Positions 177 through 18,456 of a stretch of DNA of 64,000 nucleotides are shown piece by piece; position 1 is the stretch's first letter; the number at the start of each line of letters is the position of its first letter. The translations under genes and the position numbers were made by a program. Source of the DNA: Gemmatimonadota bacterium (GTDB lineage: Bacteria > Gemmatimonadota > Gemmatimonadetes > Gemmatimonadales > Gemmatimonadaceae). The notes beneath the pieces are model-generated. The model was not told the origin of the DNA. It searched no databases and saw nothing but the letters and a program-made list of their open reading frames with translations. The stretch lies in the NCBI GenBank assembly GCA_040389905.1, contig JAZJZK010000020.1, forward strand, positions 98,977-162,976, in the 5' to 3' direction.

Positions 177-650
177 TCAGTAGATATCGGCAATGCCCCA
201 CTGTGGAATCAGCGTGGGGAGGAGGATTGCGGATATGCTGTCGGTCGAAAGGGGTTGATCGAGAAGGGCCAAGCGTCGCCGGCGGGCGACGACAGCATCT
301 TCCGGGCCGATGCGGCAGTCCACGGCGACGACGAAGCGCATTGAGGACAACCGGTGAAGCCGCACCGTCGTCGTCGCGGTCGCTCCGTTCGGGTCGGCGC
401 TTCGCGGTCCAACATCCCATCGGCGATCGCCGCCGATCGGGAGCGAGTCGCGATCCGGCCAGCCCGTCGCGATGACGTCGCTGAGAACGCGCATGGATTC
501 CGCTTCCGCGAGCATGCCCCAGTTGAACGAATTCGACGATCGGGCGGCGCGCCGGCTGGCGGCGGAGGATCCCGTCAGGAGGGCGGCGCCGAGTGTGAGG
601 ATGGCGATCGCGATGACGAGGGCGCCCCCGTGACGTTGCTGACGCGTCAT
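177..650 (-). CDS. PilX-like minor pilin / pilus assembly protein (157 aa)
   Basis: Start re-assigned to ATG 650 (MTRQQRHGG/ALVIAIAILTLG): basic leader, Gly, hydrophobic helix without Glu5, as in PilX; ATGA overlap with upstream gene. Confidence 0.7.
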   Translation of the reverse strand: MTRQQRHGGALVIAIAILTLGAALLTGSSAASRRAARSSNSFNWGMLAEAESMRVLSDVIATGWPDRDSLPIGGDRRWDVGPRSADPNGATATTTVRLHRLSSMRFVVAVDCRIGPEDAVVARRRRLALLDQPLSTDSISAILLPTLIPQWGIADIY

Positions 651-1504
651 GGCGCTCTGCGGCGGATGGGGATGTCGGTTGAGTCGCTCCGTGTGCTGTC
701 CTGCGACTGAGAGCGCATGGGTGCGGCAGCGATCGCCGTAACGCGGATGCGTGCGATGCGGTCGGCGTCCGCCGGGACGTGCGTGGGATCGAGCCTCGAA
801 CCGGCGGCATCGAGATAGGTGAAGCCAGAGCGGCGGGTGCCCGCGCGGAGGAGCAGCGGTCCGGCAACGGGCTGGGGAGAGGTGAAGGCGCCGGACGCGG
901 TGTTCCATTCGCGGAATCCGAGTTGCCAGCTTCCGTCGCCGGACTTGTACAGGGCGTATCTCGTCTGTCTCGTGACGCGAATTGGCGCGCCACCCGGGAT
1001 GGTGTCCGGTGCCGAAATTCCGATCCGCGTGGACGCGCCGGTGGCGGAGATGGGTGTCGTACACCGCGCCTCCACATCGGCCAACGACGTGATCTCTCGG
1101 CCCGTCCATGCGGAGTCTCCGAGCCACCAGAGTGTATCTCCCGTCCGAATGGGGGAGGTGTAGCCGGAGAGGGAGATCGTGCTCGACTCGTCTGGTGTGA
1201 GCGTGGTAGAGCCCACGTTTGTTGTGCAGGCGAAGGAGATCGCGACGGGCGCGCGCACCTGAAGCGCGGTATCGCTGGCCGCTGAGGGGAGCAAGTCGCC
1301 GGCGGTGAGGTCGAGCATGGCGAGCTGGCTGGCCAGAACGCTCGTGGTGATCCCGGTTTGCGCATCGGCGGAGGAGACCGAACCGATTCGTGCGTGCGTT
1401 TGCTGCTGTCTGAGGAGACTTGCCGTCGCGGTCCCGAGCACCACGCTGGCCAGCGAAATCGCGACAACGAGCTCGATGAGTGTGGCGCCGCGGCGACTCA
1501 GCAT
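647..1504 (-). CDS. PilW-like minor pilin, prepilin N-terminal cleavage/methylation domain (285 aa)
   Basis: MLSRRG/ATLIELVVAISLASVVLG class III signal peptide with Glu5; start re-assigned to 1504. Confidence 0.8.
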   Translation of the reverse strand: MLSRRGATLIELVVAISLASVVLGTATASLLRQQQTHARIGSVSSADAQTGITTSVLASQLAMLDLTAGDLLPSAASDTALQVRAPVAISFACTTNVGSTTLTPDESSTISLSGYTSPIRTGDTLWWLGDSAWTGREITSLADVEARCTTPISATGASTRIGISAPDTIPGGAPIRVTRQTRYALYKSGDGSWQLGFREWNTASGAFTSPQPVAGPLLLRAGTRRSGFTYLDAAGSRLDPTHVPADADRIARIRVTAIAAAPMRSQSQDSTRSDSTDIPIRRRAP

Positions 1505-1854
1505 GGGATCGCCGTGGAGATAGCGACGGTCTTCTGGCCGCGTGCGCTCATCCAGACGATGGTGTCGGTTACGGTTGCAAAACCGCCCTTGCTTGGACCC
1601 ACACTCCATTTTTCGGTCAACGCATGTTGTGGATCAGAAAGGGCTCCGCCGCGCGCCGCGGCGCATCCCGAAGCGGCAAGGCTCGCGATGCGAATGGCGG
1701 AGCGCTGGGTGGCTTCGCGCCGGCGGGCGGCGTCGAGCGTGGTCCTCAGTGCGAGGGCGGAACTGCCGGCCATGCCGAGTAGGCCGACGCACACGAGGAT
1801 GAGGGCGACGAGGACCTCGACGACGGTGAGGCCAGACCGGGAGTGAGTTCGCAT
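1498..1854 (-). CDS. PilV-like minor pilin (118 aa)
   Basis: MRTHSRSG/LTVVEVLVALILVCVGLLGMAG matches PilV N-terminal pattern; first gene of an overlapping V-W-X trio. Confidence 0.8.
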   Translation of the reverse strand: MRTHSRSGLTVVEVLVALILVCVGLLGMAGSSALALRTTLDAARRREATQRSAIRIASLAASGCAAARGGALSDPQHALTEKWSVGPSKGGFATVTDTIVWMSARGQKTVAISTAIPC

Positions 1855-1938
1855 GGCCGGAGCATATTCCGACTGCGTGGCAAGCGCGTCACCGTTTTCA
1901 TGCACGCGAGTACCAAAGCAGCGCATGACGCCGGACAT

Positions 1939-2134
1939 CAGCTTTTGTCAGGTGCTCAGTGGCCAGCCACAGCTTTCAGAACGTCAGGGGGTGCGGCACT
2001 CTGGTGGCGCTTCTCCCGACGACGGCTCCACGGGTGCAAGCCCCTCGCTTCGCTCTGGGCGACAAAACACGCGAACGCCACACCCCCTGAAAATCTGTAG
2101 GCCGTGGCTGATCACTGGGCACCTGTCACATCTG
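1939..2134. repeat. Long imperfect inverted-repeat element, copy 1 (contains a REP-like unit at 2034-2068)
   Basis: Arms CAGGTGCTCAGTGGCCAGCCACAGC...CAGGGGGTGCGGC and GCCACACCCCCTG...GCCGTGGCTGATCACTGGGCACCTG; homologous to 4538-4678. Confidence 0.85.
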
Positions 2135-2155
2135 CGTCCCGTGCGACGACTCTCT

Positions 2156-3790
2156 TTAGTGCGGCGCTGCTAAAGCCACGTTGATATCTCGGATTGCCGC
2201 CCGCAGCAGCTTGATGTCTTGTGGCGGCGCATGTGAGAGCCCCGTGAACGCCTCGCGCTTCGCGTCTTTCCACCGTCCAAGCCTCGCCAGGCAGTACACG
2301 TATTCGTACCGCCCGTTGCCTGCTTCGGGATCGACGTTGAACGTCCACTCGAACAGCGTGACCGCCTGTGCACACATGCCGGCCCGCGTGTACGCGTCGG
2401 CGACGCCGAGGTTCATGCCGGCGTCATAGGGGAAAATCCGGATGGCGTGCCGGTACTCCACCTCCATCTCCGCGAAGCGCGACAGGCGCTGGAGTTCGAG
2501 CGCGTGCAGGTAGTGTGCGCGATACCCGTTCGCCGCGTCGCGCATGAGCGCCGCGAAAAAGCGCTCGTTGTTCTTCCAGACGCGCATGCGGTCGATGCTT
2601 CGTGCCAGCGCCGCGCAGAGGACGACGCCCAGTGCGAGTGCCGCGATGCGGCGCTGTCCCGCACCTATCGTTTCGCTCACATACACCGCGATCGCCCCGG
2701 CCAGCAAGACCACCCCCACACTCGGCAGGAAGAGGGTGCGTTCCGCCGTGATGAAGCCCGCCGGCACGAGGAGGTTGCTCACCGGGAGAAACGCGATCAT
2801 CAGCCACCACAGCCCGAAACTCACAACCGGTGCCCTTCGTCGCAGCGACACGGCGAGGACAATGGCTCCAGCGCAGATGACGAGTCCCGGGAGTTGCGCG
2901 GGGGAAAAGCCTCTGGCTGCCGAGACATCTGTTGGTGAGTAGTCCGCGCTCAGCTTTGTCGGGAACACCAGCAGTTGGCCGATTCGTGGGACTTCCGTCA
3001 TCATCGTTCCGATGCGGTCCCACGCGTTCAAGTGCAGAAACTTGAAGACACCGTACGGCTGAATTCCGGTGATGTCCTCCTGGACGAGGCCGCGCGCGAG
3101 CAGGTACACAACAGCAACAAGCGACAGGGCCAGGACGAGTGGCCGAGCTGCTCGAATCGACTGTCGCCATCCCTGCCCTTCCACCACGAGCAGGTCGGCG
3201 GCAACGATCAGCGCGGGGAGCACGATGGCATGTTCCTTCGAGAGCAAGGCGACCGCGAACAGCGCGGCGACCGCGATGATCAGCGCTGCGCGCAGCGTGC
3301 CCTGGCGTCGTGCTCGTATGTACAATCCCATTGCCAATGCGACGCACAGTGCCACGATCAGCTCGGATTGCCCGACGATGTTGCCTGTGACTTCGACGTG
3401 CACTGGGTGCACGGCGAAGAACGCGCCCGCGACCCATGCGCCGAGCGGGGGAAGGATGGCCAATGCGCACCAGTACACGGCGAGCGCGGTGGCTATGGCG
3501 AGGAGGATATTGATGGCGTGGAACACCCAGGGCGCGCCGTGGCCGGCCGCCCATTGCAGCGTGAAGAGCGACATCACAAAGGGGCGATAGCCGTCCCCGC
3601 CGAAGCGGGCGGGCCAGTACGTCTCCGCGAACAGACGCGGCAGGTGCGCGAGCGAGTGCACGCGCTCGTTCTCGAGGATGACGCCGCGATCGTCGAAGGT
3701 GAAGTCGTGGCCGATGCTGGTGGCCGTCGCGATGAGGGCCAGGGCGGCGATGGTTGCCGCGGGGATGATCCTGCGCCAGCTCGTGGTCAT
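2156..3790 (-). CDS. TMTC-like GT-C protein O-glycosyltransferase (DUF1736 region + C-terminal TPRs), paralog 1
   Basis: FTFDD, YRP, HPVHVE, SKE, LVFPTKLSADYS, AERTLFLPS, VWKNN motifs in TMTC order; multiple TM helices then TPR-like helices. Confidence 0.8.
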   Translation of the reverse strand: MTTSWRRIIPAATIAALALIATATSIGHDFTFDDRGVILENERVHSLAHLPRLFAETYWPARFGGDGYRPFVMSLFTLQWAAGHGAPWVFHAINILLAIATALAVYWCALAILPPLGAWVAGAFFAVHPVHVEVTGNIVGQSELIVALCVALAMGLYIRARRQGTLRAALIIAVAALFAVALLSKEHAIVLPALIVAADLLVVEGQGWRQSIRAARPLVLALSLVAVVYLLARGLVQEDITGIQPYGVFKFLHLNAWDRIGTMMTEVPRIGQLLVFPTKLSADYSPTDVSAARGFSPAQLPGLVICAGAIVLAVSLRRRAPVVSFGLWWLMIAFLPVSNLLVPAGFITAERTLFLPSVGVVLLAGAIAVYVSETIGAGQRRIAALALGVVLCAALARSIDRMRVWKNNERFFAALMRDAANGYRAHYLHALELQRLSRFAEMEVEYRHAIRIFPYDAGMNLGVADAYTRAGMCAQAVTLFEWTFNVDPEAGNGRYEYVYCLARLGRWKDAKREAFTGLSHAPPQDIKLLRAAIRDINVALAAPH

Positions 3791-3823
3791 CCGTGACGCG
3801 TGAAGTTGAGTGGGCGGAAACGA

Positions 3824-3855
3824 AGAGCGGCGCGCCGAAACCGGCGCGCCGCTCT
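3824..3855 (-). terminator. Hairpin terminator/attenuator downstream of pilA
   Basis: Perfect 14-bp stem AGAGCGGCGCGCCG / CGGCGCGCCGCTCT, 4-nt loop, 19 bp past the pilA stop; weak U tract. Confidence 0.7.
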
Positions 3856-3874
3856 CAGTTAACCTGTGCAGCGG

Positions 3875-4264
3875 TTACTTACAAGCCGGCTCGCCATCGC
3901 CAGCGGTGCTGACGATCGGGTTCGCGGTGTTGACGCCGATGCCGCAGGAGAACGACGCGATCTGCGTGTGCGTGATCGTGGCAGACCAGTAGCCCGAGCC
4001 CGGGACGATCGTCGGGGTGTTCACGCCCGTGGAGGGCTTGAACTTGAGCTTCGTGGTGTCGTAGGTCACGTACTTGGTCGAATCAGCGAAGAAGGACTCT
4101 TCGGCGGTGACCAGGTTACGGAGATCCGACTTCATCGCGGCGATGTAGGCCTTCGACTTCGTGTTCGCGAACTTCGGGATCGCGATCGCGGCGAGAATGC
4201 CGATAATCACGACGACGATCAGCAGCTCGATCAGGGTAAAGCCACGGCGTGAGCGGTTCATCAT
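3875..4264 (-). CDS. pilA: Type IVa major pilin (121 aa mature)
   Basis: MMNRSRRG/FTLIELLIVVVIIGILAAIAIPKF; C-terminal Cys pair; own promoter and hairpin; strongly biased codons. Confidence 0.92.
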   Translation of the reverse strand: MMNRSRRGFTLIELLIVVVIIGILAAIAIPKFANTKSKAYIAAMKSDLRNLVTAEESFFADSTKYVTYDTTKLKFKPSTGVNTPTIVPGSGYWSATITHTQIASFSCGIGVNTANPIVSTAGDGEPACK

Positions 4265-4355
4265 GTGCAGGTTCCTCGGGGTGGTGCAGCGGGGGGACGA
4301 ACGCGACGGTTCGTCGGGCGGGGTGCCGGCGACGGGTGCCGGCGACTGATGCTAG

Positions 4356-4371
4356 AGCAACCTGCGGACCA
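4356..4371 (-). promoter_or_regulatory. Sigma54 (-24/-12) promoter of pilA
   Basis: Minus strand TGGTCCGCAGGTTGCT has exact GG-N10-GC spacing about 90 bp upstream of pilA; NtrC-family PilR encoded in the locus. Confidence 0.75.
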
Positions 4372-4399
4372 TTCGTTTGGCTGACTGTAAGTGTATATC

Positions 4400-4412
4400 G
4401 TACAACGTGTTG
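4400..4412. promoter_or_regulatory. Possible IHF site between enhancer region and sigma54 promoter
   Basis: GTACAACGTGTTG fits the CAA-N4-TTR core of WATCAANNNNTTR inside an AT-rich patch. Confidence 0.4.
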
Positions 4413-4537
4413 AGAATTCTTTAAGGGGTGGTATACCGGGCTGTTTGTGCTGGATTTTGCGGAATACATAGCAGTTTGCGGCACTGCGCCTCGGGCCGGG
4501 ACTGGTGGTTCCGAGCAGTGCATTGGTCCACCGGCCT

Positions 4538-4678
4538 CAGCTTTGTCAGGTGCTCAGGGATCAGCCGCAGCCGACAGTTTTTCAGGGGGTGTGGCGTTCA
4601 GGGGGCATCGCGCGCAGTCCGCCACACCCCCTGTCGCTCTGTTGGCTGCGGCTGGCCACTGAGCACCTGTCGCATCTG
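4538..4678. repeat. Long imperfect inverted-repeat element, copy 2
   Basis: Arms CAGGTGCTCAGGGATCAGCCGCAGCC...CAGGGGGTGTGGC and GCCACACCCCCTG...GGCTGCGGCTGGCCACTGAGCACCTG; homologous to 1939-2134. Confidence 0.85.
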
Positions 4679-4709
4679 ATTACCGCACGAGACAGCGTCC
4701 GCAGCACCT

Positions 4710-6353
4710 TTACTTGTACTTGCCACCCGCACGCAGCACCCGCGCCGACTCCCAGACCGCCGCGCGCATGAGTCGTAAGTCCCGTGATGGCACGTATTTG
4801 AGCCCGGCCAGCGCCTGGCTCCGCACGTCCGTCCACCGCCCCAGCTTCGCAAGACAATAGACGTACTCGTATCGACCCTCGCCCATTTCCGGTTCCACAC
4901 TGAACGTCCATTCGAACAGCGCAACGGCCGGCGCACACAGGCCTGCCCGCGTATATGAGTCGGCGATGCTCAGTGTCATGCCGGCGTCGTACGGGAAAAT
5001 ACGGATCGCCCGACGATACTCCATCTCCATCTGCGCGAGATGGCTCTGGAGCCCGACGTGCTTGGCGAACAAGAAATGCGCGCGATACCCGTTCGGGGCA
5101 TCGCGCATCAGGGCGACGAAGAATGCGTCGTTGTTCTTCCACACGTGCATGCGGTCGATGCTCCGCGCGAGTCCAGCGAGGATCAATGCCGCGAGCGCAG
5201 CGCCCGCCAGTGTGCGGCGTGTCGCGCCCGCGCGTGCGCGCACATACTCCGCAATCACCCCCACCACGATCAACACACCCACACTCGGCAGGAATAACGT
5301 GCGCTCTGCCGTCACGAAGCCGGCTGGGATGATCAGGTTGCTGACCGGTGCGAACGATACGATCAACCAGAAAAGCCCGAAGGAGGCGACGGGTGCTCGT
5401 TTTCGCAGCACGACCGCGAGCAGCACCGTGCCGCAGGTGATGATGATGCCTGGCAGCTGCGAGACGTCGAAGCCCCTCGCGACGATCACATCGTTCGGCG
5501 AGTAGTCGGCGCTCAGCTTGACCGGAAAAACCAGCAGCTGCGCGATGCGCGGCATCTCGTTCATCATCGTCCCGATGCGGTCCGTCGCGCTCATGCGCAA
5601 GAATCGGAAGATCGGAAACGGGATGAATCCCGTGAGGTCGCTCTGCACCGCGCCTCGCGCGAGGAGATAACCGAGTGCGACGGCGGTGAGCGCGAGCAGG
5701 AGCGGTCGCACCGCCCTGGCGCGTGCACGACAATCGTCGTGCGCCGGCAGGACGAGCTCCGCAGCGACGATCAGCGCAGGCAGCACGATGGCGTGCTCCT
5801 TCGAGAACAGCGCAAGCGCGAAGAGCGCAGTGATCGTTACCGTACTGCGCCCATCGGGCCCGCCGCGCGTGCGCTGCCGCAGAAAGACGCCCATGGCCAG
5901 CGTGACGAAGAGGGCAACCAGCAATTCCGATTGCCCGACGACGTTGCCGGTGACCTCGACGTGGACCGGGTGGACCGCGAACAGCGCGGCAGCGACCCAC
6001 GCGCCCAGCGGGGGAAGAATCGCCGAGATACACCAGAACACGGCGAGCGCCGTGGCCACCGCCAGCAGGATGTTGACGAGATGGAACAGCCACGGCGCAC
6101 CGTGCGCGGCACTCCATTGCATTGTGAAGAGCGTCGTGACAATCGGCCGATAGCCGTCACCGCCGTACTTGGGTGGCCAGTAGGTTTCCGTAAACAGTTG
6201 CGGAATTCGCCACATCGCGTGCACGCGATCGTTGTCGAAAATGACGCTGCGATCGTCGTAGGTGAAATCGTGGCCGATACTGCCGATCGTCGCGGCGAGG
6301 GCGAGTGCGCCCACGCTGCCGGCGGAGAGAAGCTCCCGCCGCGACGTGCTCAT
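4710..6353 (-). CDS. TMTC-like GT-C protein O-glycosyltransferase, paralog 2
   Basis: Same motif series as 2156-3790 (FTYDD, YRP, HPVHVEVTGNVVGQSEL, SKEHAIVLPALI, AERTLFLPS); start re-assigned to ATG 6353 (TGATG overlap). Confidence 0.8.
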   Translation of the reverse strand: MSTSRRELLSAGSVGALALAATIGSIGHDFTYDDRSVIFDNDRVHAMWRIPQLFTETYWPPKYGGDGYRPIVTTLFTMQWSAAHGAPWLFHLVNILLAVATALAVFWCISAILPPLGAWVAAALFAVHPVHVEVTGNVVGQSELLVALFVTLAMGVFLRQRTRGGPDGRSTVTITALFALALFSKEHAIVLPALIVAAELVLPAHDDCRARARAVRPLLLALTAVALGYLLARGAVQSDLTGFIPFPIFRFLRMSATDRIGTMMNEMPRIAQLLVFPVKLSADYSPNDVIVARGFDVSQLPGIIITCGTVLLAVVLRKRAPVASFGLFWLIVSFAPVSNLIIPAGFVTAERTLFLPSVGVLIVVGVIAEYVRARAGATRRTLAGAALAALILAGLARSIDRMHVWKNNDAFFVALMRDAPNGYRAHFLFAKHVGLQSHLAQMEMEYRRAIRIFPYDAGMTLSIADSYTRAGLCAPAVALFEWTFSVEPEMGEGRYEYVYCLAKLGRWTDVRSQALAGLKYVPSRDLRLMRAAVWESARVLRAGGKYK

Positions 6354-7132
6354 CACGCCAGGTTGAACTTCAGAATATGCCAGAGCGCGGCGATGCCGTC
6401 GCGCCAACTGATCTTCTTCCCTTCCGCGTACGTCCTGCCCGCGTAGGAAATCGGTACTTCGAAAATCCTGGCATCGCGCTTGGCAAGCTGCGCCGTGATC
6501 TCCGGCTCGAAGCCGAAGCGGTCGGACGTCAGCGACAGCGAGCGCGCCAGGTCACCCCGCACCGCCTTGTAGCAGGTCTCCATGTCGGTGAGGTTGAGAT
6601 TCGTCAGCATGTTGCTGAAGAGCGTGAGCAACGTGTTGCCGACGGAGTGCCAGTAGTAGAGGACACGATGCGGCCCCCCGAGAAAGCGCGAGCCGAAGCA
6701 GGCGTCGGCCTTGCCGTCCACGATCGGCTTGAGCAGTTCGGGCCAATCCTGCGGATCGTATTCGAGATCGGCGTCCTGCACGATGACGACATCGCCGGTG
6801 CTTGCGGCGAGCGCTGTGCGAATGGCCTTTCCCTTTCCACCGTTTACCGGCTGGAAAATGAGGCGATCGACGAAGCCCGCCGCATGCAGTTCAACGAGGC
6901 GTTCGCGCGTGCCGTCCGTCGAGCAGTCATCGACGCAGATGATCTCTTTCGCAATCGGCGTGGCGTGCACGCGATCGAGAATCGTCTCGATGGTATTCCG
7001 CTCGTTGTACACGGGGATGAGTACCGAGAGGCGCAGCGTGTTGATGTCGAGCGGCGTCAACTCGCGCGGCTTCGCCGCGAGGGTGAGCGATTTTGCGGCC
7101 GTCGTCGGGACGGAAGAGGGAGTGGGATTCAT
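6353..7132 (-). CDS. GT2 glycosyltransferase, Dpm1/Ppm1-like polyprenol-phosphate-sugar synthase (259 aa)
   Basis: [49 protein letters not shown] motifs; start re-assigned to ATG 7132. Confidence 0.88.
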
Positions 7133-8673
7133 CGAGGAAGAACGGTGAACGCCGCGCCACCGGCGAATTGATCTCGCAGCACCAGCAACGGCGACGGCCC
7201 CGAGGCAAGATACTGGGCCGCGTCGAAAGTTCGTGGTGAGCCCACCAACACGACGGAGATCGGATAGCGGGCGAGGAGTGGCACCAGTCCCTCCGCTGCC
7301 TCGACCGCGGGAGTTCGCGTGCCGAGATAGTCGGCCGTGGTGAACGAGGCGACGGGAACCGAGTGACGCCCGGTATACAGAAAGACAGCGCCCTCGTCGT
7401 CGGCGGCGACGACCGCGTCGCGCGCCGTGTTCGCGCGGGTCCACGCGACGACAGAATCCACGCGCGGACTCGCGGCGCGGGAGATGCTCGACCACCACTG
7501 GCCGCGGATCGCGCGAAACTCGTACGATGCGTAGCCGACGGCGAGCCAGGCGGAACACGCGAGGACCGTCGCGCGCACGGCGGCCGGCCAACGCGCTTCC
7601 GCGCGAGCGGCCCAACCCGCGGCGGCGAGCATCATCAGCACGAGTGGCCAGAGCCCCCACACGAAGCGCGAGGGAGCGAATGGCCACACGAGCACGATCG
7701 CGAAGTACCCGGCCATGAACAGCGCAGTGACGGGTGCGCTGCGCCACAGCGCCACGCCGCCAACCAGCAGTGCGATGCACAGCGCGACACCGGTGATGTC
7801 GTGCACCACGGGCGAGCGCGCCACGGAAAACAGTGAGACGAGCATCGACGCGGTTTCCGGTATCGTTCGCATGAGCGTCGCCGGAATCAGGCGGAGCCCC
7901 ATCGCGTCGTAGCCGCGCAGCCACCACGCCGCGTACGAGCCGTAGTTGCCTTGCAGCGGCGCCGCGAGATCGGCGGCGTGCAATCTGCCCCAGAGTTGCC
8001 ACGGTGCGATGATCACGAGCGCGGTCGCGAGCGCGAGCGTTACATCACGCCACCGTCGCTGCAACAGCAGAGGAATCGCGAGCGCGGGCAGCAGGACGAT
8101 GCCGTGCGCCCGCACCAGTGACGCGACGCCGATGAGCAGTCCAATCGCGATGATGTGCGGCGTCGCGCTCGCGGATGTGACGAGCCGTTCCGAGAAGATG
8201 AGCGTCGCAAGGACGAGCACAATGAACAAGGGCTCGGAAAGCACCATCGTGACGAGGACCAGCAGCGGCACACTCACCGCCGTCGTAATACCGATCGCGC
8301 GCGCGAGCCACGCGCTGCCCAGCCGTTCGCGGACCAGGCTCACCGTGAGCCACGCGATGGCCGCGAGCAGAAGCACATTCATCGCCTTGAATGCGACGAC
8401 GTTCGCCGGAAAATTCGGCGCGAGTCTCCAGATCAACGAAAGAACGGCGGGATAGAGCGGCGGGAAATGCGACGCGAACGGCGCATCGGGGAGATTGATG
8501 TATCGATAGCCTTGGCCCGTGGCCATCGATTTCGCCAACACGAGGTACATGGCGTCATCATGAAAAACGCCGACGCTGTACTGGTCCATGACGCAGGCGC
8601 CGACGACCAGCGCGATCGCGCTGATCACGATGGTGTCAACGCGAGAAACGCGAGGCGTCGCCACGACCGCCAT
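7129..8673 (-). CDS. GT-C fold (PMT/ArnT-like) membrane glycosyltransferase B
   Basis: [22 protein letters not shown] after first TM, HFPPLYP, LSEPLF, many TM helices; start ATG 8673 or GTG 8679. Confidence 0.72.
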
Positions 8674-8675
8674 CG

Positions 8676-10292
8676 TCACGGCACCACCTCGTAGACGCCG
8701 GTCCCCTGGAGTGACTGCACACGCCGCAGCCCTGGGTGGGACGGCGCGAGTGCGTCGGCCGACTGCTGCAGGCCCGGCGCGGTGAGAATGACATAGCGCG
8801 CGGGAACGGCGTCGAGCATTGCCGTGAGCCGCGCCCTGCCCTCGTCCAGCGTCAACGGCGCCACGTATTCCCGTGCCGTAAACGAAACAGGCGGCGCGGC
8901 CACCTGACCGAGATAGAGTGCCAGCACCTGCTCGCCGTCGCTGAGAATGGGTTGCTCCGGTGTGACGTTCCGATGTACCCACGCGAGCACGGGCGTAACC
9001 GTTCGTGCGCCGTCACGCGCCGGCGACCGCCAGTCGCGCGTTGCGTACACATGCAGCTCGACGCGCAGAATGATCACCGCCGGAAGCACCGCCGCCACTG
9101 CGACGCCGACGCGCCAGCGTCCCGCGCTGCTCCACGCCCAGCGCACGCCGCTGAAGACCAACAGGCCAAGGAGGGGCCAGACCGCCCAGAGGAATCGCCA
9201 CGGGTTGTAGGGCCACACCAGCACGATCGCGAAGTAAAAGCAAGCGAAGAGGAGCGTGACTGGCGCTCTTCGCCGAAGCGACCAACACCCCACGATCAAC
9301 GCGACGACGACCATCGTCGTGGCCAGGACTTGGAGGAGTGGAGGGAACCCGGCCGCGAGCCGGTCGCCGACGAAGAGCCAGCACTCCGTTGCGTTCATCT
9401 TCACGGTCGCCAGTACGAACGACGCGCCTCCATCGCGCACGCCGGTCACGAACCACCCGACGTAGGAGCCGTACGATCCTTCGAGCGGCCGAGTGACGTG
9501 TGGAGAGGCGAACGCCGTCCACAGAATCCACGGCAGTTGGACACCAATCGCGCTGGCCCCAACGATGGCTCCCTCGCGCCATCGCCGATGGATTGCCATC
9601 ATCACCACCATCGCCCCCAGCAACGCGAGTGCGTGCGTGCGCACGAGCATGAGTGCGCCGATGGCGACGCCCGTCCAAATCAGCCTGCGATTGGATGAGG
9701 GAAGAAACGGTGCCGCGTCGTTCCGTTGGTTTTGTCGCCCTGAGTGTAACGAAGGGCCCGCACCTGCTGTGGCTTCGGCAACGCCCTCGCACAGCAGTAA
9801 ACACGGCCACAGCATCGCGAGAAACATCGTCTCCGATAAGAGCGCGTTCGCGAGGACCAGTGTCGGCATTGTCAACGACGCGGCGAGTGCACCCGCGATG
9901 GCGACCCACCGATTCCATTCGCCGCGACGCGTCGCGAAATGCCACCATCCCAAGGCCGCGCCACCGACCATCGCGGCGTTCAGTCCGAGCAGCGAGGGCA
10001 CATTGTCGGGAAAGGACGGCGCGAGCGCCCAGAACAGCGAGAGGAGCAAGGGATACAACGGCGGGTAGTGCGTCGCGGCCGGCGCGCCAGGGAGGAACGA
10101 ATAGTGGAAACCATTCCCGCTCGCGATCGATTGCGCGAGGAGAGCGTAGACGCCGTCATCATGGAACACGCCGACGAGGTACGTGCCCAGCGACCAGAAG
10201 GCGATCGACGTGGCAACGACGAGCACGATCGCCGGCGCGACGAATCGCCAGCGGTCCCCGTGGTGTGGTGCCGCGGAATGGCGGGCCGTCAT
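8676..10292 (-). CDS. GT-C fold (PMT/ArnT-like) membrane glycosyltransferase A
   Basis: GVFHDDGVYALLAQSIASGNGF, HYPPLYP, LSETMF; clear paralog of 7129-8673. Confidence 0.72.
   Translation of the reverse strand: MTARHSAAPHHGDRWRFVAPAIVLVVATSIAFWSLGTYLVGVFHDDGVYALLAQSIASGNGFHYSFLPGAPAATHYPPLYPLLLSLFWALAPSFPDNVPSLLGLNAAMVGGAALGWWHFATRRGEWNRWVAIAGALAASLTMPTLVLANALLSETMFLAMLWPCLLLCEGVAEATAGAGPSLHSGRQNQRNDAAPFLPSSNRRLIWTGVAIGALMLVRTHALALLGAMVVMMAIHRRWREGAIVGASAIGVQLPWILWTAFASPHVTRPLEGSYGSYVGWFVTGVRDGGASFVLATVKMNATECWLFVGDRLAAGFPPLLQVLATTMVVVALIVGCWSLRRRAPVTLLFACFYFAIVLVWPYNPWRFLWAVWPLLGLLVFSGVRWAWSSAGRWRVGVAVAAVLPAVIILRVELHVYATRDWRSPARDGARTVTPVLAWVHRNVTPEQPILSDGEQVLALYLGQVAAPPVSFTAREYVAPLTLDEGRARLTAMLDAVPARYVILTAPGLQQSADALAPSHPGLRRVQSLQGTGVYEVVP
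9729..9763. repeat. REP-like unit inside a coding sequence
   Basis: GTTTTGTCGCCCTGAGTGTAACGAAGGGCCCGCAC matches the intergenic units at 26504, 35305 and 60632. Confidence 0.85.
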
Positions 10293-11662
10293 GCCTCCAC
10301 GCCGTAGCGCGACAGCTTTCGATAGAGTGTCGATGGATCGATGCCGAGGGCATCAGCGGCGCGACTCTTGTTGCCGCCTTCACTCTGGAGTACCCACATG
10401 ATGTACGCGCGCTCGACCGCTTCGAGCGTCGGATTGGAGTGAATGCGGTCCGCGACGAGCGGCTCGCTCACGCGGGCCGTCACACGCTCGGGAAGCGCCG
10501 CGGGTTGAATCTCCGCGCCCGGCGTGAGGATGACGGCACGCTCCAGTGCGTTCTCGAGTTCACGGACATTTCCGGGCCACGTATACGCAACGAGGGCTTC
10601 GAGCGTGTCCGGCGATAACGCCTTTTGCGCCTCCTTGCGGAGATCGGCAATGCGCTCGAGAAAATGTTCGGCCAGAAGCGGAATGTCGTCGGCGCGCTGG
10701 CGGAGCGTCGGAAGGTGGAGCGCAATGACGTTGAGCCGGTAATAGAGATCGGTGCGAAACGATCCGCGGCGAATCTCCTCCTCGAGTTCCCGGTTCGTCG
10801 CGGCAATGAGGCGAACGTCGATCGGCTGCGGATCCGTTCCGCCGACGGGGATGACCTCACGCTGCTGGAGTACGCGGAGCAACTTGACCTGCGTCGCGGG
10901 AGTCGTCTCGCCGATCTCATCGAGAAAGAAGGTGCCCTTCGCAGCCGCGGTGAATAGCCCGCTCTTGTCCTTGATCGCACCAGTGAACGAGCCCTTCACG
11001 TGTCCGAACAACTCGCTCTCGAGCAAGCTTTCCGGCAGTGCGCCGCAGTTGATCGACGCGAAGGTGCGATCCGAACGCGACGAGAGCTCGTGGATGTAGC
11101 GCGCGATGACTTCCTTTCCGGTGCCGGACTCACCCTGAATCAGAACCGTGGATTCCGTGGGAGCGACGGTTTCGGCGAGTCGCAGGACGTCGAGCCAGCT
11201 GCGGCTATTCCCCACGGGTCGCGACCCCGTCGGCCCCTCTCGGCGCTTGATTTCCTGCCGCAGCGAACGGTTTTCGACGCGCAGTTCGCGGTGCTCGGCG
11301 GCGCGCTTGAGGATCGCGAGCAGCTCGTCGTTCCGAAAGGGCTTCTGGATGTAGTAGAAGGCACCCTCGTTGACCGCCTGCATGGCGGATTGGAGGGTCG
11401 CCTGCGCGGTCATCAGGATGACCGGCGTATCGGCATTCTGCTGCCGCGCCGCCGCGAGTATCTCCACACCCGTGACATCGGGCATCCGGATGTCGGAGAG
11501 CACGATGTCCGGTTGGAGCGCGCTCAACTGCTCAAGGCCGGCACGCCCTCCACGCGCCGTGTATGTATCGAAGCCGGCGTTTCTGAGGAGAATGCCAAGG
11601 GTCTCGAGAATGCCCGGCTCATCGTCGATGACAAGGACCGACGGAATGCGATTCGCGTTCAC
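10289..11662 (-). CDS. pilR: Sigma54-dependent response regulator (REC-AAA+-Fis HTH), PilR-like
   Basis: IDDE and SDIRMP receiver, GESGTGKE Walker A, ESELFGHVKGSFTGA, WPGNVRELEN, C-terminal HTH; beside pilin genes. Confidence 0.85.
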   Translation of the reverse strand: MNANRIPSVLVIDDEPGILETLGILLRNAGFDTYTARGGRAGLEQLSALQPDIVLSDIRMPDVTGVEILAAARQQNADTPVILMTAQATLQSAMQAVNEGAFYYIQKPFRNDELLAILKRAAEHRELRVENRSLRQEIKRREGPTGSRPVGNSRSWLDVLRLAETVAPTESTVLIQGESGTGKEVIARYIHELSSRSDRTFASINCGALPESLLESELFGHVKGSFTGAIKDKSGLFTAAAKGTFFLDEIGETTPATQVKLLRVLQQREVIPVGGTDPQPIDVRLIAATNRELEEEIRRGSFRTDLYYRLNVIALHLPTLRQRADDIPLLAEHFLERIADLRKEAQKALSPDTLEALVAYTWPGNVRELENALERAVILTPGAEIQPAALPERVTARVSEPLVADRIHSNPTLEAVERAYIMWVLQSEGGNKSRAADALGIDPSTLYRKLSRYGVEA

Positions 11663-13458
11663 GTGTAGGCGGGTCGGGGGGTGTTCGGAACATGCGAGGG
11701 TGTCGCGCTCTCGAGCGTCGTGCGCGGGGCGCAGGGCAAAACGACGGTGAAGCGAGTGCCGGCGGGGCTCGAGTCCACGAAAATGAGGCCGCGATGTGCG
11801 TCGATCGCCCGGTGCACGACCGCCAATCCAAGGCCCGAGCCGCCGGGTTTCGTCGTGAAGAACGGATCGAAGAGCCGATCGCGACTTTCCGGCGCGATCC
11901 CGGACCCCGCGTCGGCCACGCTGATGGCGACAGCACCCGTCGCGAACGCGCCGCCCGACCCGATATGCTCGGGCGACGGCGTGGACACGTCGAGCCTGAT
12001 CTCGCCATTGGGTGGCGACGCCTGAATCGCATTGAGCAGGAGGTTGAACACCGCGCGATGCATCAGGTCTTCATCCCCCTCGATCACGAACTCCCCTGGC
12101 TCGACGCGTGAGCGGATGGCGATGCCGGCACTGTCAGGGTGCGCGAGCGCGAGCCTCGTCGTTTCAGACACGAGGGATCCGACGTCGAGGGGTTCGAGCC
12201 GCGCGACCCGCACGCGGGCGAAATCGAGAAACTCCGACAGCAGGCGACTGAGCCGGTCGGATTCACGCATGACGAGATGCGCCAGTGTGCGCTCGTCGGC
12301 CCCGGAATATGGGGAGCGCGAGAGCTGCTCAACGGCACTGCGAATCGACGCCAGTGGATTCTTGATCTCGTGGGCAAGCGACGCCGACAACTCCGCGACT
12401 CCCTCCAGCCGCTCCGCGCGAAGGCGCAGCGTGTCCATACGCTTCTGGTCGGAGATATCCTGGAAGATCGCCGTCGCCGTGCGGTCCGTCCGCCGGCCGT
12501 CGCCGTCCGTGTACGTGGTCGTGACGCCGATGGGGAACCGCTTGTCGACCGTCATGATCATGCCTTCCGCGCGCGTCGTGCGAATGCGGTCGTTGACCGA
12601 GCGTGCGAGTGCGTCGGCCAACTCCGGCGCGATGCGGCGAATCGCCTCGATCACGGGCAATCCGATGAATTCGTCGAGCGCCAGTCCGAGCAACTGCTCC
12701 GCCATCGGGTTCGCATAGAGGAGCAGTCCGGTCGCATCGATGGTCACGACGCCGCTCCTGATGTTGAACAGGATGTCCGCGGCTTGGAGCCGGACCTGCG
12801 CCAGCTCCGCTTCCGTGCCAGTGCGCCCCTCCTGGAGCTTTCCGCTCAGGTAGGCACTGCCGAGCGCGACGAACGCGAAGACGCCGAGGTGGAGATAGAC
12901 GACGGGCGTGAATCCGGAATCGATGCTCCACAGCGAATCCGCTACATATAGGACGCATCCAAGCGCGGCCACCAGGATCCCACCGCCACCGGCCGGGAGC
13001 AGCAGCGACGACGCCGCGATGACAAGGATGTAGAGCGCGGCGAACTGGGAGCTGCCGCCTGCGGCACGTTCGCGCGTGAGTTCCACGACGACCGTGACCA
13101 GGAGCAGGTCGAAGATGGACTGGAGATAGTAGAAGGTCGGGCGGACCGGTTTGGAGAAGAACCGGACGTAGAAGAACGACGCGACCCACGAGCCGACGGT
13201 GACCAGCAGCGTGATCGACGCGACGAGGAGTTTGCTCGTATCATGGAGTTCTGGCGCCTCTCCCTGCCACACGACGACCGCAGCGATGAATATTGCGGTG
13301 GCGATCGAAATACGAGCGACGTAGACCCAGCGCATGAGTCGCGACGGGTCCAACAGGATGATGCGACTGGATCGGTCGGCTCGCTCGAATGGTCTCACAG
13401 CGTCTGTTGCAAAGTGCGTGATGTTGGACGGTGGCGCGACACTGGCATTCTGCCACAC
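11659..13458 (-). CDS. pilS: Membrane sensor histidine kinase with PAS domain, PilS-like (start uncertain, may be up to about 120 nt downstream)
   Basis: About six TM helices, PAS, AHEIKNPL H-box, NLLLNA, DAGSGI, FDPFFTTK, GSGLGL; GTGA overlap with pilR. Confidence 0.82.
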   Translation of the reverse strand: MWQNASVAPPSNITHFATDAVRPFERADRSSRIILLDPSRLMRWVYVARISIATAIFIAAVVVWQGEAPELHDTSKLLVASITLLVTVGSWVASFFYVRFFSKPVRPTFYYLQSIFDLLLVTVVVELTRERAAGGSSQFAALYILVIAASSLLLPAGGGGILVAALGCVLYVADSLWSIDSGFTPVVYLHLGVFAFVALGSAYLSGKLQEGRTGTEAELAQVRLQAADILFNIRSGVVTIDATGLLLYANPMAEQLLGLALDEFIGLPVIEAIRRIAPELADALARSVNDRIRTTRAEGMIMTVDKRFPIGVTTTYTDGDGRRTDRTATAIFQDISDQKRMDTLRLRAERLEGVAELSASLAHEIKNPLASIRSAVEQLSRSPYSGADERTLAHLVMRESDRLSRLLSEFLDFARVRVARLEPLDVGSLVSETTRLALAHPDSAGIAIRSRVEPGEFVIEGDEDLMHRAVFNLLLNAIQASPPNGEIRLDVSTPSPEHIGSGGAFATGAVAISVADAGSGIAPESRDRLFDPFFTTKPGGSGLGLAVVHRAIDAHRGLIFVDSSPAGTRFTVVLPCAPRTTLESATPSHVPNTPRPAYT

Positions 13459-13497
13459 TACATTGCCATGGACGATTCGGCACGGAGGTGGTTACGG

Positions 13498-13932
13498 ATG
13501 GCGACTGAAGACGGACTGCTGGTGTCTCTGACCACAGTCATTCCGCGTGCCGAGCTCATGTATAGGGCGAGCCGAGCCGGCGGCGCGGGAGGGCAGCATG
13601 TGAATACGTCGTCGACGCGGATCGAGCTGCTCTGGAATGTGCGAACCTCGCCGTCGATTTCTGAGGACCAACGCGCTCTGCTCGAGACGAAACTCGCGAC
13701 GCGGATTGATGGCGAGGGATGGATCCGGGTTGTTTCCAGCGCGCGTCGCAGCCAGAGTCAGAATCGGGAGGCGGCAGACGAGCGATTGGAGGAGTTGGTG
13801 CGCAAGGCACTTGTCGTCCAGAAGAAACGAAAAGCCACCAAACCGTCGCGAGGGGCGAAGGAGGCTCGGCTCAGCTCGAAGAAAAAGCGCGGCGATACTA
13901 AGCGGCAGCGGCGCGGCGACGCTTTCGACTAA
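13498..13932 (+). CDS. arfB: Alternative ribosome rescue peptidyl-tRNA hydrolase ArfB
   Basis: SRAGGAGGQHVNT GGQ motif, RSQSQNR, basic tail KRKATKPSRGAKEARL. Confidence 0.93.
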   Translation: MATEDGLLVSLTTVIPRAELMYRASRAGGAGGQHVNTSSTRIELLWNVRTSPSISEDQRALLETKLATRIDGEGWIRVVSSARRSQSQNREAADERLEELVRKALVVQKKRKATKPSRGAKEARLSSKKKRGDTKRQRRGDAFD

Positions 13933-13942
13933 GGGATTGGCT

Positions 13943-14134
13943 CGCGTTGGACGGGAATGGTCCGGCTCACAAGCCAAAACGACCCGGTTTCAATGAAGCA
14001 GATTTGACGGATTGAACGGATTCTGCGGATAACTACGTGAACGGAAGATCCGTCGAATCCGCTTAATCCGCATAATCTTTTTCGAAAACTGGGTCAGTGA
14101 TGCTTTTGAGGGTGCGTGTGCAATGTCCAACGCG
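13943..14134. repeat. About 190-bp imperfect palindrome with internal CGGATT/AATCCG repeats
   Basis: CGCGTTGGAC/GTCCAACGCG ends, GACCCGGTTT/AAACTGGGTC inner arms, tandem CGGAT units at 14001-14077; between convergent genes. Confidence 0.7.
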
Positions 14135-14164
14135 CCGAGACGTTTGGCGTAGCGGCAGATCCGA

Positions 14165-14848
14165 TTAGTCGATCGCCATTCTGGCTTTCATCGCCGGGAG
14201 CGCTTCGCGGGCATGTTTGGCCATCGCAGAGCCCGGATACCGCTCGATAATCCGCCGAAGCTCGACCACGGCGCGCCCGGGGTCCGCCAGGGGTCCTTCA
14301 TATAGATCCACGAGCCGGCTCGACGCGTACACCGCGTCGCGCGACGGAACGCCCGGGATGTCGCGAATCTCCCGAAAGAGCTCGGCGGCCCGCGTGGGAT
14401 TCCTGTTCCCTTTCACATAATGCTCCGCGGCCCGCATCCGTGGAGACACGAGCTGGGGGTTCTCTGCGATGATCGCCTCGTATGACTCCAGCGCCTCGGC
14501 GATTTCGCCCTTCATGATCATCGCCTCCTGGTACGAGAACTGTTGCTCGTACGGAGTTGAGTTGCCGGATGGAAGGGTAAATCCCTTGGCCACGGCGCCG
14601 GCGGCAGTCGGGATCGACAATACGGCGAAGGCGCCGATACTCCCGAGGAGTGCGCCAAGCCCGACCGAGGTGAACGAGAATCCCATCTTCCCGATGACGG
14701 CGAGCAAGGCGAAGCAGAACACGAAGACGGCGCCGACGCGCGCACGCAGCACGTTGACGCCATCCGGTCCGGCGCGATCGAGCCACGACCGCTTGTATTC
14801 GGGAGATCCCTCCATTCCTGGAGGCAGCACAGGGGGTGCGCTAGGCAT
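14165..14848 (-). CDS. Hypothetical protein, two TM helices plus TPR-like domain (227 aa)
   Basis: GGAGA RBS before ATG 14848; TPR-like EALESYEAII and RRIIERYPGS segments. Confidence 0.7.
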   Translation of the reverse strand: MPSAPPVLPPGMEGSPEYKRSWLDRAGPDGVNVLRARVGAVFVFCFALLAVIGKMGFSFTSVGLGALLGSIGAFAVLSIPTAAGAVAKGFTLPSGNSTPYEQQFSYQEAMIMKGEIAEALESYEAIIAENPQLVSPRMRAAEHYVKGNRNPTRAAELFREIRDIPGVPSRDAVYASSRLVDLYEGPLADPGRAVVELRRIIERYPGSAMAKHAREALPAMKARMAID

Positions 14849-18448: not shown

Positions 18449-18456
18449 GTGCGGAG

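What the first reader, a model, noticed from the sequence alone, without database searches (positions are those of the whole stretch)
2156..13458. Candidate self-contained pilin O-glycosylation system built on TMTC-like transferases and wired into the PilSR operon
Seen: pilS-pilR-GTC-GTC-GT2-TMTC are joined by overlapping stop/start codons at every junction (11659/11662, 10289/10292, 8676/8679, 7129/7132, 6353), then come pilA, a second TMTC-like gene and pilV/W/X. Known: metazoan TMTC1-4 are Dol-P-Man-dependent O-mannosyltransferases for cadherin beta-strands; Dpm1/Ppm1-type GT2 enzymes make the lipid-phosphate-sugar donor; GT-C enzymes use an acidic DD motif in the first external loop (FDD/YDD and HDD here). 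The well-studied pilin glycosylation enzymes are PglL/TfpO O-OTases and TfpW, not TMTC-type. Mature PilA has 25 Ser/Thr in 121 residues. Inference: GT2 makes a polyprenol-P-sugar, the TMTC-like enzymes prime pilin Ser/Thr, and the two GT-C paralogs extend or decorate the glycan in the periplasm. I know of no characterised bacterial TMTC-type pilin pathway, but cannot search to confirm novelty.
Basis: partly seen in the sequence, partly recalled or inferred. Interest (0 to 1): 0.85.

Follow-up and report, generated by a model that had tools for sequence, protein, structure and literature searches.

The report
TfpW/TMTC-family pilin glycosylation cassette
Around the main pilus-subunit gene of this Gemmatimonadota bacterium sit five sugar-handling genes that likely attach an unidentified sugar to the pilus subunit outside the cytoplasm; two of them are relatives of the known Pseudomonas pilin enzyme TfpW and resemble animal TMTC enzymes, so this is an untested variant of a known system rather than a new kind.

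Summary
The gene order, junctions, DD motifs and pilin Ser/Thr count are real. Both transferase types model as GT-C folds. The cassette is an optional insert between pilR and pilA: 52 of 55 examined TMTC-positive genomes of the class carry such a gene in the pil locus, and in 18 of 27 loci lacking the three families pilR abuts pilA. Pilins beside a TMTC-like gene are richer in Ser/Thr (0.277 vs 0.225; PGLS p 6e-6 to 3e-4, weaker on the pilin tree, p 0.012). So it likely works like TfpW with a different, GT2-made lipid-sugar donor; sugar unknown; no flippase in the cassette. The role of the two other GT-Cs is open. The scan found this module before on other DNA, including other Gemmatimonadota. 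New variant of a known kind; nothing shown biochemically.

The parts
11659..13458 (-). pilS-type sensor histidine kinase (start codon uncertain)
   Evidence: Pfam 6TM_PilS 1.2e-9, HisKA, HATPase_c, PAS; GTGA overlap with pilR
10289..11662 (-). pilR-type sigma-54 response regulator
   Evidence: Response_reg, Sigma54_activat, HTH_8; single close orthologue per genome in relatives
8676..10292 (-). GT-Ca: GT-C membrane glycosyltransferase, HDD motif, paralogue of GT-Cb
   Evidence: 32% identity to GT-Cb over 529 aa; member of profile A2; not folded itself
7129..8673 (-). GT-Cb: GT-C glycosyltransferase with a C-terminal alpha/beta domain like that of AglB/ArnT (alternative GTG start at 8679)
   Evidence: PMT_2 1.2e-4, under cut-off; model pLDDT 96; VIA Z 23.3, rmsd 4.7, 420 aligned to AglB 3waj; Z 21.2 to ArnT 5f15 and Pmt 6p2r; D39 invariant in 96 of 96
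6353..7132 (-). GT2, predicted polyprenol-phosphate sugar synthase (DPM1/Ppm1-like), no membrane helix; sugar unknown
   Evidence: Glycos_transf_2 2.6e-31; best solved relative Pyrococcus Dol-P-Man synthase 5mlz 4.2e-17; best NCBIfam AglJ 118 bits vs cut-off 325; 0 hydrophobic segments
4710..6353 (-). TMTC1: TfpW/TMTC-family GT-C with C-terminal TPR hairpins
   Evidence: model pLDDT 96; VIA Z 22.8, rmsd 4.0, 325 aligned AglB; Z 20.3 Pmt 6p2r; Z 19.3 ArnT; TPR matches over 421-545; BLASTP to TfpW 29% over 210 aa, E 2e-17
4537..4679 (.). about 150-nt imperfect palindrome, member of a genome-wide interspersed repeat; not part of the pathway
   Evidence: arms 60 nt, 78% complementary; 35 loci on 16 contigs
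4357..4371 (-). sigma-54 (-24/-12)-type promoter-like site for pilA
   Evidence: 2-mismatch consensus match, not above chance in the window alone; such a site lies upstream of 27 of 123 pilA genes vs 3 of 123 on the opposite strand
3875..4264 (-). pilA, major type IV pilin, predicted acceptor
   Evidence: N_methyl 2.2e-10; NF041775 3.4e-19, under cut-off; 121-aa mature chain, 25 Ser/Thr, C-terminal Cys pair
3819..3860 (-). 15-bp hairpin between pilA and TMTC2, likely terminator/attenuator
   Evidence: -40.6 kcal/mol, z -4.36, 0 of 200 shuffles as stable; inverted repeat I9; not listed by the terminator scan
2156..3790 (-). TMTC2: second TfpW/TMTC-family GT-C/TPR, in the tfpW position directly behind pilA
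   Evidence: 64% identity to TMTC1 over 533 aa; groups with TMTC1 and the same-genus orthologue, support 100; TPR_19 8.7e-4
1946..2128 (.). second copy of the palindromic repeat
   Evidence: arms 61 nt, 75% complementary; hit
177..1857 (-). minor pilin genes pilV-, pilW- and pilX-like (possible further acceptors)
   Evidence: TIGR02523 pilV 6.5e-8, under cut-off; N_methyl weak hits; pilX by position only

Best explanation
The cassette likely O-glycosylates the type IV pilin in the periplasm: the GT2 is predicted to load one sugar onto a polyprenol phosphate, an unlinked transporter would flip it, and the two TfpW/TMTC-family GT-C enzymes likely transfer it to Ser/Thr of membrane-held PilA, which their TPR tails would recognise. 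Shown: gene order and coupling, GT-C and TPR folds in high-confidence models, conserved catalytic residues, homology to TfpW, conserved and optional position between pilR and pilA, co-occurrence with the GT2, and higher pilin Ser/Thr where the enzyme is present. Inferred: the donor chemistry, the flippase, the acceptor, TPR recognition. The sugar is not identified (mannose is one candidate, not shown). GT-Ca/b use the same donor type; my split for them is 45% extend or branch the pilin sugar, 30% prime other Ser/Thr sites or proteins themselves, 25% act on another envelope glycan. The most likely benefit is masking the pilus from pilus-binding phages, as shown for TfpW and TfpO in Pseudomonas (10.1101/150227, abstract); this is by analogy only.
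For: Folds. Motifs of human TMTC (PMC7801869 Table 4 text) in 87 pil-linked homologues: D33 87, D34 85, R69 87, P70 87, E133 87, K185 87, E186 87, E350 86, R351 87. TfpW homology: best profile hit in P. paraeruginosa ATCC 9027 is a 641-aa ORF between pilA and a TfpX-family gene, E 2.3e-23; hhalign 98.6%, 395 columns. Linkage: 52 of 55 examined TMTC-positive genomes of the class, 44 of 55 within 500 nt of a pilA frame; 53 of 72 loci; 2 of the 19 other loci lie beside pilB/pilT/pilC-type genes; one genome has an isolated TMTC-pilA pair away from its main locus (L073). In a Gammaproteobacteria sample 12 of 29 best loci have a pilin within 1.5 kb, 7 of them with a GT2, 5 with pilR. GT2 orthologue in 52 of 52 TMTC-positive and 13 of 31 TMTC-negative genomes of the two main families (hand count). 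Pilin Ser/Thr 0.277 (38 loci) vs 0.225 (23 loci); PGLS +0.053, p 5.6e-6 (lambda 0.86) and 2.9e-4 (lambda 1); simulated phylogenetic ANOVA p 0.0016; 8 of 9 nearest pairs; gains at mature positions 54-63 and 93; PilN, PilO, PilW, PilM, PilR show no difference, PilQ borderline p 0.05.
Against: No biochemical or expression data (no RNA holder listed). The binary independent-pairs test was not significant (3.5 same way, 1.0 opposite, median p 0.5); on the pilin's own tree the effect halves (+0.028, p 0.012); within this genome's family it is not significant (p 0.18). The family is huge (49,330 clusters at E up to 1e-3, part probably TPR-only) and 19 of 72 class loci, 12 of 12 loci in the other sampled class, and three more genes in this genome (C12, C52) have no pilin beside them. 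The TMTC1/2 active site differs from TMTC and TfpW at motif M3 (QxE instead of RxD). No GtrA flippase found in this 84.6%-complete genome.
Confidence: 0.75

Rival explanations
1. General periplasmic protein O-glycosylation: the TMTC-like enzymes modify many exported Ser/Thr-rich proteins (minor pilins, PilQ, adhesins) and PilA is a minor client or none; the position reflects co-regulation with pilus assembly.
For: Many homologues lie away from pilins, three in this genome; PilQ Ser/Thr is slightly higher in TMTC-positive loci (0.160 vs 0.149, p 0.05); two identical-architecture paralogues suggest more than one client.
Against: 44 of 55 genomes place the gene within 500 nt of pilA; the Ser/Thr shift is five times larger in PilA than in PilQ and absent in PilW, PilN, PilO; the characterised homologue TfpW modifies pilin.
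Confidence: 0.12
2. Three-component envelope-glycan modification (GtrABC/ArnT type): GT2 plus GT-Cs add side sugars to LPS, lipid A or another surface polymer, and the cassette only hitch-hikes at the pil locus.
For: GT-Cb matches ArnT and AftB over its whole length; in the other sampled class the GT2/GT-C pair lies in glycan clusters with GT4, YfhO, Bac_transf and LPG_synthase_TM genes and no pilin; two stand-alone GT-C orthologues lie beside an O-antigen-ligase gene.
Against: Does not explain the TPR-tailed TfpW homologues, their adjacency to pilA in two phyla or the pilin Ser/Thr shift. It remains plausible for GT-Ca/b alone.
Confidence: 0.08
3. Non-catalytic pilin accessory role: the TMTC-like proteins act as membrane chaperones for pilus assembly, as proposed for TfpY.
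For: Position behind pilA and a hairpin as for tfpY (PMC11841053 passages); altered M3 motif.
Against: Catalytic residues are invariant (D33 87 of 87, K185/E186 87 of 87) and the donor-making GT2 is present in 52 of 52 TMTC-positive genomes of the two main families.
Confidence: 0.05

Closest known systems
TfpW, pilin D-arabinofuranosyltransferase of Pseudomonas aeruginosa group IV / P. paraeruginosa (10.1101/2020.04.19.049825; PMC12369383)
   Same: Homologous (profile E 2.3e-23, BLASTP E 2e-17, hhalign 98.6%); 11 membrane helices, DD in the first outer loop, C-terminal TPR, two-proline spacing in loop 4, gene beside pilA, exchangeable pilin-locus cassette, lipid-monophosphate-type donor, Ser/Thr acceptor (inferred here).
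   Different: Donor predicted from a GT2 inside the cassette, not from the unlinked UbiA/DprE arabinose pathway; main copy upstream of pilA and coupled to pilSR; two copies; two extra GT-Cs of another family; no tfpX; strict YX6PFX7P absent (0 of 146); QxE for RxD; only about 29% identity over the N-terminal 210 aa.
Metazoan TMTC1-4 (CAZy GT105) cadherin O-mannosyltransferases (PMC7801869, PMC6801728)
   Same: 11-helix GT-C plus TPR; DD, YRP, KE, D-aromatic and ERxx-aromatic motifs in the same order; weak DUF1736 matches in at least 14 of 85 homologues.
   Different: No DUF1736 hit for the window's own proteins, best homologue 25.8 bits vs cut-off 27; SHKS replaced by GGDG, RxD by QxE, DW by DY; shorter TPR tail; donor and acceptor unknown. 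No eukaryotic sequence was aligned directly.
Polyprenol-phosphate sugar synthases (Pyrococcus DPMS 5mlz, ArnC, GtrB, AglJ, PpgS)
   Same: GT2 catalytic domain with DAD motif; best solved relative is DPMS.
   Different: No membrane helix, no GtrA partner found; under the cut-off of every named NCBIfam family, so the sugar cannot be read off.
PglL/TfpO O-oligosaccharyltransferases (Wzy_C)
   Same: Pilin O-glycosylation in the periplasm; tfpO also sits behind pilA.
   Different: No Wzy_C domain in any cassette gene; those enzymes transfer pre-built oligosaccharides from a diphosphate lipid.

Membership tests
TfpW-type pilin glycosyltransferase | Sequence homology to TfpW | tested here: met
   identity of the target as TfpW from its place between pilA and a TfpX-family gene over cut-off, divergent from pilB, and its YX6PFX7P motif
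TfpW-type pilin glycosyltransferase | GT-C fold, 11 membrane helices, DDX in the first periplasmic loop | tested here: met
   Model and fold search; helix count read from the model; D33-D34
TfpW-type pilin glycosyltransferase | C-terminal periplasmic TPR domain | tested here: met
   TPR matches over residues 421-545; Pfam TPR_19 weak in TMTC2
TfpW-type pilin glycosyltransferase | Proline-rich motif YX6PFX7P in loop 4 | tested here: not met
   Strict motif 0 of 146; relaxed [YW]X6PX8P 109 of 146; the window's proteins keep both prolines but have I and V/T at the Y and F places
TfpW-type pilin glycosyltransferase | Gene directly downstream of pilA | tested here: met
   Met by TMTC2; TMTC1 and most relatives lie upstream
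TfpW-type pilin glycosyltransferase | Polyprenyl-P-D-arabinofuranose donor pathway (UbiA-type synthase, DprE1/E2) | not tested
   Not in the cassette; the whole genome was not searched for it. One relative (L062) has a UbiA-type and a HAD gene in the slot
TfpW-type pilin glycosyltransferase | O-glycosylates pilin Ser/Thr | not testable with these tools
   Only indirect: Ser/Thr co-variation
TMTC / GT105 | Motifs M1 DD, M4 KE, M7 ER | tested here: met
   D33, D34, K185, E186, E350, R351 (F for Y at 354; Y in 51 of 87 pil-linked homologues)
TMTC / GT105 | Motifs M2 SHKSYRP, M3 RxD, M5 DW, M6 PxxP in full | tested here: not met
   YRP only; QxE (R in 43 of 87 homologues); DY; second proline only
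TMTC / GT105 | Pfam TMTC_DUF1736 above the curated cut-off | tested here: not met
   No hit in the window's proteins at E up to 0.1 or in the genome (where no control genome rang either); under-cut-off hits in at least 14 of 85 homologues. TfpW has no Pfam hit at all
TMTC / GT105 | Dolichol-P-mannose donor and cadherin beta-strand acceptor | not testable with these tools
   A mannose-1-phosphate guanylyltransferase-like gene exists elsewhere, under cut-off; says nothing on this pathway
PglL/TfpO O-oligosaccharyltransferase | Wzy_C domain | tested here: not met
   No Wzy_C hit in the five cassette proteins at E up to 0.1
GtrABC-type three-component system | GtrA-family flippase with the GT2 and GT-C | tested here: inconclusive
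   PF04138 not found in this genome, which is 84.6% complete; controls rang in 8 of 14; five LPG_synthase_TM genes lie elsewhere
STT3/AglB oligosaccharyltransferase (for GT-Ca/b) | WWDYG sequon-binding motif (motif recalled, from no call) in the C-terminal domain | tested here: not met
   Fold matches AglB end to end but the equivalent place reads A-[AT]-[DE]-D-E-G

The most novel reading that the evidence does not exclude
The pilR-pilA gap of Gemmatimonadales is an exchangeable pilin-armour slot in which pilin sequence co-evolves with its enzymes. TMTC-type protein O-glycosylation would be an old bacterial pilin function, with TfpW as its only tested member, and GT-Ca/b would be a second, so far unnamed family of AglB-shaped protein O-glycosyltransferases able to prime pilin without any TMTC (as loci L115 and L119 suggest), so that one pilus carries two independently installed glycans.
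Probability: 0.25. Interest if true: 0.7.

Novelty: new variant of a known kind. Interest (0 to 1): 0.45.

Why it matters
If true, a very large, untested bacterial enzyme family has pilin as a main client in at least two phyla, and TfpW, animal TMTC and these proteins are one family: a small bacterial enzyme with a 121-residue substrate would be a tractable model for TMTC catalysis and TPR-guided site choice, for which no solved structure came up in my searches. The present/absent slot, with a measurable shift in pilin Ser/Thr, gives a natural experiment on pilus masking in a little-studied phylum. It is not a new kind of system, and the scan has met it several times.

Tried and rejected
Co-folding TMTC1 with PilA: not run, the queue was full; binding stays untested. 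RNA runs: no RNA holder listed. Sequence search of solved structures with the TMTC profile returned TPR proteins only among the 60 shown; no TMTC or TfpW structure appeared in the fold searches, which does not exclude them. TMTC1 has no match among plasmids. GT-Ca/b are not TfpW-like (hhalign 0.3%) and only distantly related to TMTC1 (91.6%). The palindromes are a genome-wide repeat, not a regulatory RNA of the locus; Rfam gave only hairpin-level matches far under the gathering scores. The sigma-70 scan found no promoter in 1850-4800. The binary independent-pairs test was uninformative. Three pilins with frameshift-like tails or no C-terminal Cys pair were dropped before the 61-locus test; loci without a full pilin or without PilR/PilM were not counted. 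The TMTC tree (FastTree, 166 rows) leaves TfpW on a long, unplaced branch, so no direction of transfer is claimed. The sugar could not be assigned from GT2 matches. A primer route to TfpW failed: Kus et al. 2008 is not held and the one supplement of PMC11841053 that was searched named no tfpW primer. Look-alike search of earlier findings by place gave nothing.
Full report
Observation. The window lies on contig C20 of a 5.08-Mb, 84.6%-complete genome; named close homologues are from Gemmatimonadota. On the minus strand run pilS, pilR, GT-Ca, GT-Cb, GT2 and TMTC1 with overlapping or abutting stop/start codons at all five junctions, then after 445 nt pilA, a 15-bp hairpin, TMTC2 and three minor-pilin-like genes. 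pilM-Q-like genes follow beyond the window edge (names from recall). GC content is level across the cassette (0.61-0.68). The DD motifs and the count of 25 Ser/Thr in 121 residues are as stated.

Folds. TMTC1, folded with 146 aligned homologues, gives pLDDT 96: eleven membrane helices by my reading of the model, D33-D34 at the start of the first outer loop, and helical hairpins from residue 421. Against 48,161 solved chains the best matches are AglB (Z 22.8, rmsd 4.0, 325 aligned), Pmt (Z 20.3), STT3 (19.9) and ArnT (19.3) for residues 1-420 and TPR proteins for the tail; Foldseek agrees more weakly. GT-Cb, folded with 96 homologues (pLDDT 96), matches AglB end to end (Z 23.3, rmsd 4.7, 420 aligned), with ArnT, Pmt and ALG12 close behind; its C-terminal domain lacks the WWDYG motif (recalled) and reads A-[AT]-[DE]-D-E-G there. 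GT-Ca was not folded; it is 32% identical to GT-Cb. The GT2 has no hydrophobic segment and its best solved relative is the Pyrococcus Dol-P-mannose synthase (4e-17), but it is under every named NCBIfam cut-off, so the sugar is open.

TMTC-likeness. Against the seven motifs in Table 4 of PMC7801869 (passages seen), TMTC1 keeps DD, YRP, KE and ER, has DY for DW and F for the M7 tyrosine, and departs at SHKS, RxD (QxE) and the first proline of PxxP. Across 87 pil-linked homologues the core residues are at or near 87 of 87. DUF1736 is not hit by the window's proteins but is hit below cut-off by at least 14 of 85 homologues scanned (only the best five families were shown per protein). No eukaryotic sequence was compared directly, so the claim is 'TMTC-like', not 'GT105 member'.

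TfpW is in the same family. The TfpW preprint (10.1101/2020.04.19.049825; abstract, Introduction, first part of Results and Discussion read) describes a 646-aa GT-C with 11 predicted helices, DDX, a YX6PFX7P motif and a C-terminal TPR, encoded behind pilA and needed for D-arabinofuranose on several pilin Ser/Thr, mainly Thr64 and Thr66. I reached the genome of P. paraeruginosa ATCC 9027 and searched it with my profile: the best of 25 matches, and the only one in the membrane part, is at E 2.3e-23 in a 641-aa ORF that follows pilA, precedes a TfpX-family gene over its cut-off, diverges from pilB and holds YX6PFX7P. TMTC1 aligns to it at 29% over 210 aa (E 2e-17) and the profile at 98.6% over 395 columns, sharing DD, RP, HP, KE, ER and the W before the TPR; the GT-Cb profile does not (0.3%).

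Neighbourhood. Of 121 genomes of the phylum, 71 have a TMTC1 match at E up to 1e-8. I fetched up to 20 kb around matches for 55 of the 58 positive genomes of the class (own genome included) and 8 of 13 outside it, and behind pilR for 40 of 48 further pilR matches. In 52 of 55 the gene shares a locus with pilA, pilR or pilM, in 44 of 55 its open frame lies within 500 nt of a pilA frame; by locus 53 of 72; outside the class 0 of 12. In 67 loci where pilR and pilA or pilM were both seen, 26 hold TMTC, GT-C and GT2 together, 27 none of them, 5 TMTC alone, 5 TMTC+GT2, and one each TMTC+GT-C, GT-C+GT2, GT-C alone and GT2 alone; the two sets were chosen by different anchors, so these are not population frequencies. 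In 18 of the 27 empty slots pilR abuts pilA. Presence changes at least 11 times on a PilR+PilM tree of 61 loci. Other passengers of the slot are further PMT_2-type GT-Cs, methyltransferases, GT4s, a sugar aminotransferase with epimerase, a UbiA-type plus HAD pair, and a fused MFS/spermidine-synthase-like gene (65 of 93 candidate ORFs scanned). The GT2 is single-copy in 94 of 121 genomes, present in 52 of 52 TMTC-positive and 13 of 31 TMTC-negative genomes of the two main families (hand count; one match has stops inside). In 300 genomes of the class of P. paraeruginosa, 75 match the profile at E up to 1e-15 (the tally includes one genome marked unpublished, on which nothing else here rests); 12 of the 29 best loci examined have a pilin within 1.5 kb, 7 of these a GT2 and 5 pilR.

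Does the pilin respond? In residues 51 to the end, pilins of TMTC-positive loci have 0.277 Ser+Thr (38 loci) against 0.225 (23 loci) (three suspect pilins dropped). On the PilR+PilM tree PGLS gives +0.053 (p 5.6e-6 at lambda 0.86; 2.9e-4 at lambda 1), a simulated phylogenetic ANOVA p 0.0016, and 8 of 9 nearest opposite pairs go the same way; Ala and Pro fall; the largest column gains are at mature positions 54, 58, 59, 63 and 93, while position 78 goes the other way. PilN, PilO, PilW, PilM and PilR do not differ; PilQ is borderline (p 0.05). Against: the binary independent-pairs test is not significant, the own family alone is not (p 0.18), and on a tree of the pilins themselves the effect is +0.028, p 0.012, so part of it reflects pilin and cassette travelling together. 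This is support, not proof.

Regulation and completeness. The five overlaps suggest one transcript from pilS to TMTC1 (inference). pilA has its own sigma-54-type site at 4357-4371, a match not above chance alone but enriched upstream of pilA genes (27 of 123 vs 3 of 123). TMTC2 follows the pilA hairpin, as accessory genes do in Pseudomonas (PMC11841053, passages). Coupling to pilSR is not obligatory: 16 of 87 pil-linked TMTC-like genes face the other way. No flippase is in the cassette; GtrA was not found in the genome, five LPG_synthase_TM genes lie elsewhere; TfpW's flippase is also unidentified.

GT-Ca/b. Of 46 close orthologues (E under 1e-100) 41 lie in pil loci; the five others have no pilin near them, one faces a TMTC-like gene and two an O-antigen-ligase gene. 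Distant homologues in the other class pair with the GT2 inside envelope-glycan clusters. Two loci (L115, L119) have them next to pilA in genomes with no TMTC match. Extension, independent priming and a non-pilin acceptor all remain open.

Literature and novelty. Full-text searches (listings only unless named) found no paper on pilin glycosylation in Gemmatimonadota and none holding both whole words TfpW and TMTC (numbered names such as TMTC1 would be missed); subscription journals, Kus et al. 2008 and preprint supplements were not seen and may bear on this. Also seen as passages: PMC12369383 (most P. paraeruginosa carry tfpW; cassettes are swapped by transfer), PMC11194591, 10.64898/2026.10.26.761861, PMC10214176 (TPR as likely substrate recruiter), PMC6801728; abstract only: 10.1101/150227 (pilin glycans block phages). 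Earlier notes of this scan reached the same reading on other DNA. Verdict: a real, conserved, optional cassette that most likely O-glycosylates pilin as TfpW does, with a different predicted donor and extra GT-Cs: a new variant of a known kind, confidence 0.75, interest 0.45.

Noticed in passing
window 4537-4679 and 1946-2128: An imperfect palindrome of about 150 nt follows each TMTC-like gene; 35 loci on 16 contigs of this genome carry relatives. Looks like a REP/MITE-type interspersed repeat; the two copies bracket pilA and TMTC2.
   Followed up: partly
L057, L070, L093, L120, L123, L130, L131 (for example L131:12906-16016): A gene of about 1,030 aa for a membrane protein fused to a spermidine-synthase-like domain (NCBIfam fused MFS/spermidine synthase, over cut-off in L131) sits in the pilR-pilA slot of seven relatives, four of them without any of the glycosyltransferases: possibly another pilus-surface modification.
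   Followed up: partly
L062:2509-4289: A UbiA-type prenyltransferase (best match decaprenyl-phosphate phosphoribosyltransferase, under cut-off) and a HAD phosphatase lie upstream of two TMTC-like genes and three pilA copies: a pentofuranose donor route like the one TfpW uses.
   Followed up: partly
G000 C24:1517-1903 and C21:13396-13782: Two more pilA copies (92% and 82% identical) lie far from the pil locus with no glycosyltransferase beside them.
   Followed up: no
G000 C12:109857-111815, C12:120253-122067, C52:40386-42698: Three further TMTC-like genes without pilin neighbours; the two on C12 flank a large outer-membrane-receptor-like gene pair (recalled from the translations).
   Followed up: partly
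window 13396-20757: arfB, a small TPR membrane protein, a peptidase/WD40/beta-barrel-type protein and a TPR lytic transglycosylase follow pilS; arfB beside pilS is kept in many relatives of the family.
   Followed up: no
L171:1145-2764: Behind tfpX in P. paraeruginosa ATCC 9027 lie an ORF that reads like a DNA adenine methyltransferase and a convergent ORF (label recalled from the translation).
   Followed up: no
L114, L116, L117, L118, L038: Five pil loci of the own family show pilR and pilM but no major pilA in the 20 kb fetched; L038 keeps the whole glycosyltransferase cassette without pilA beside it.
   Followed up: no
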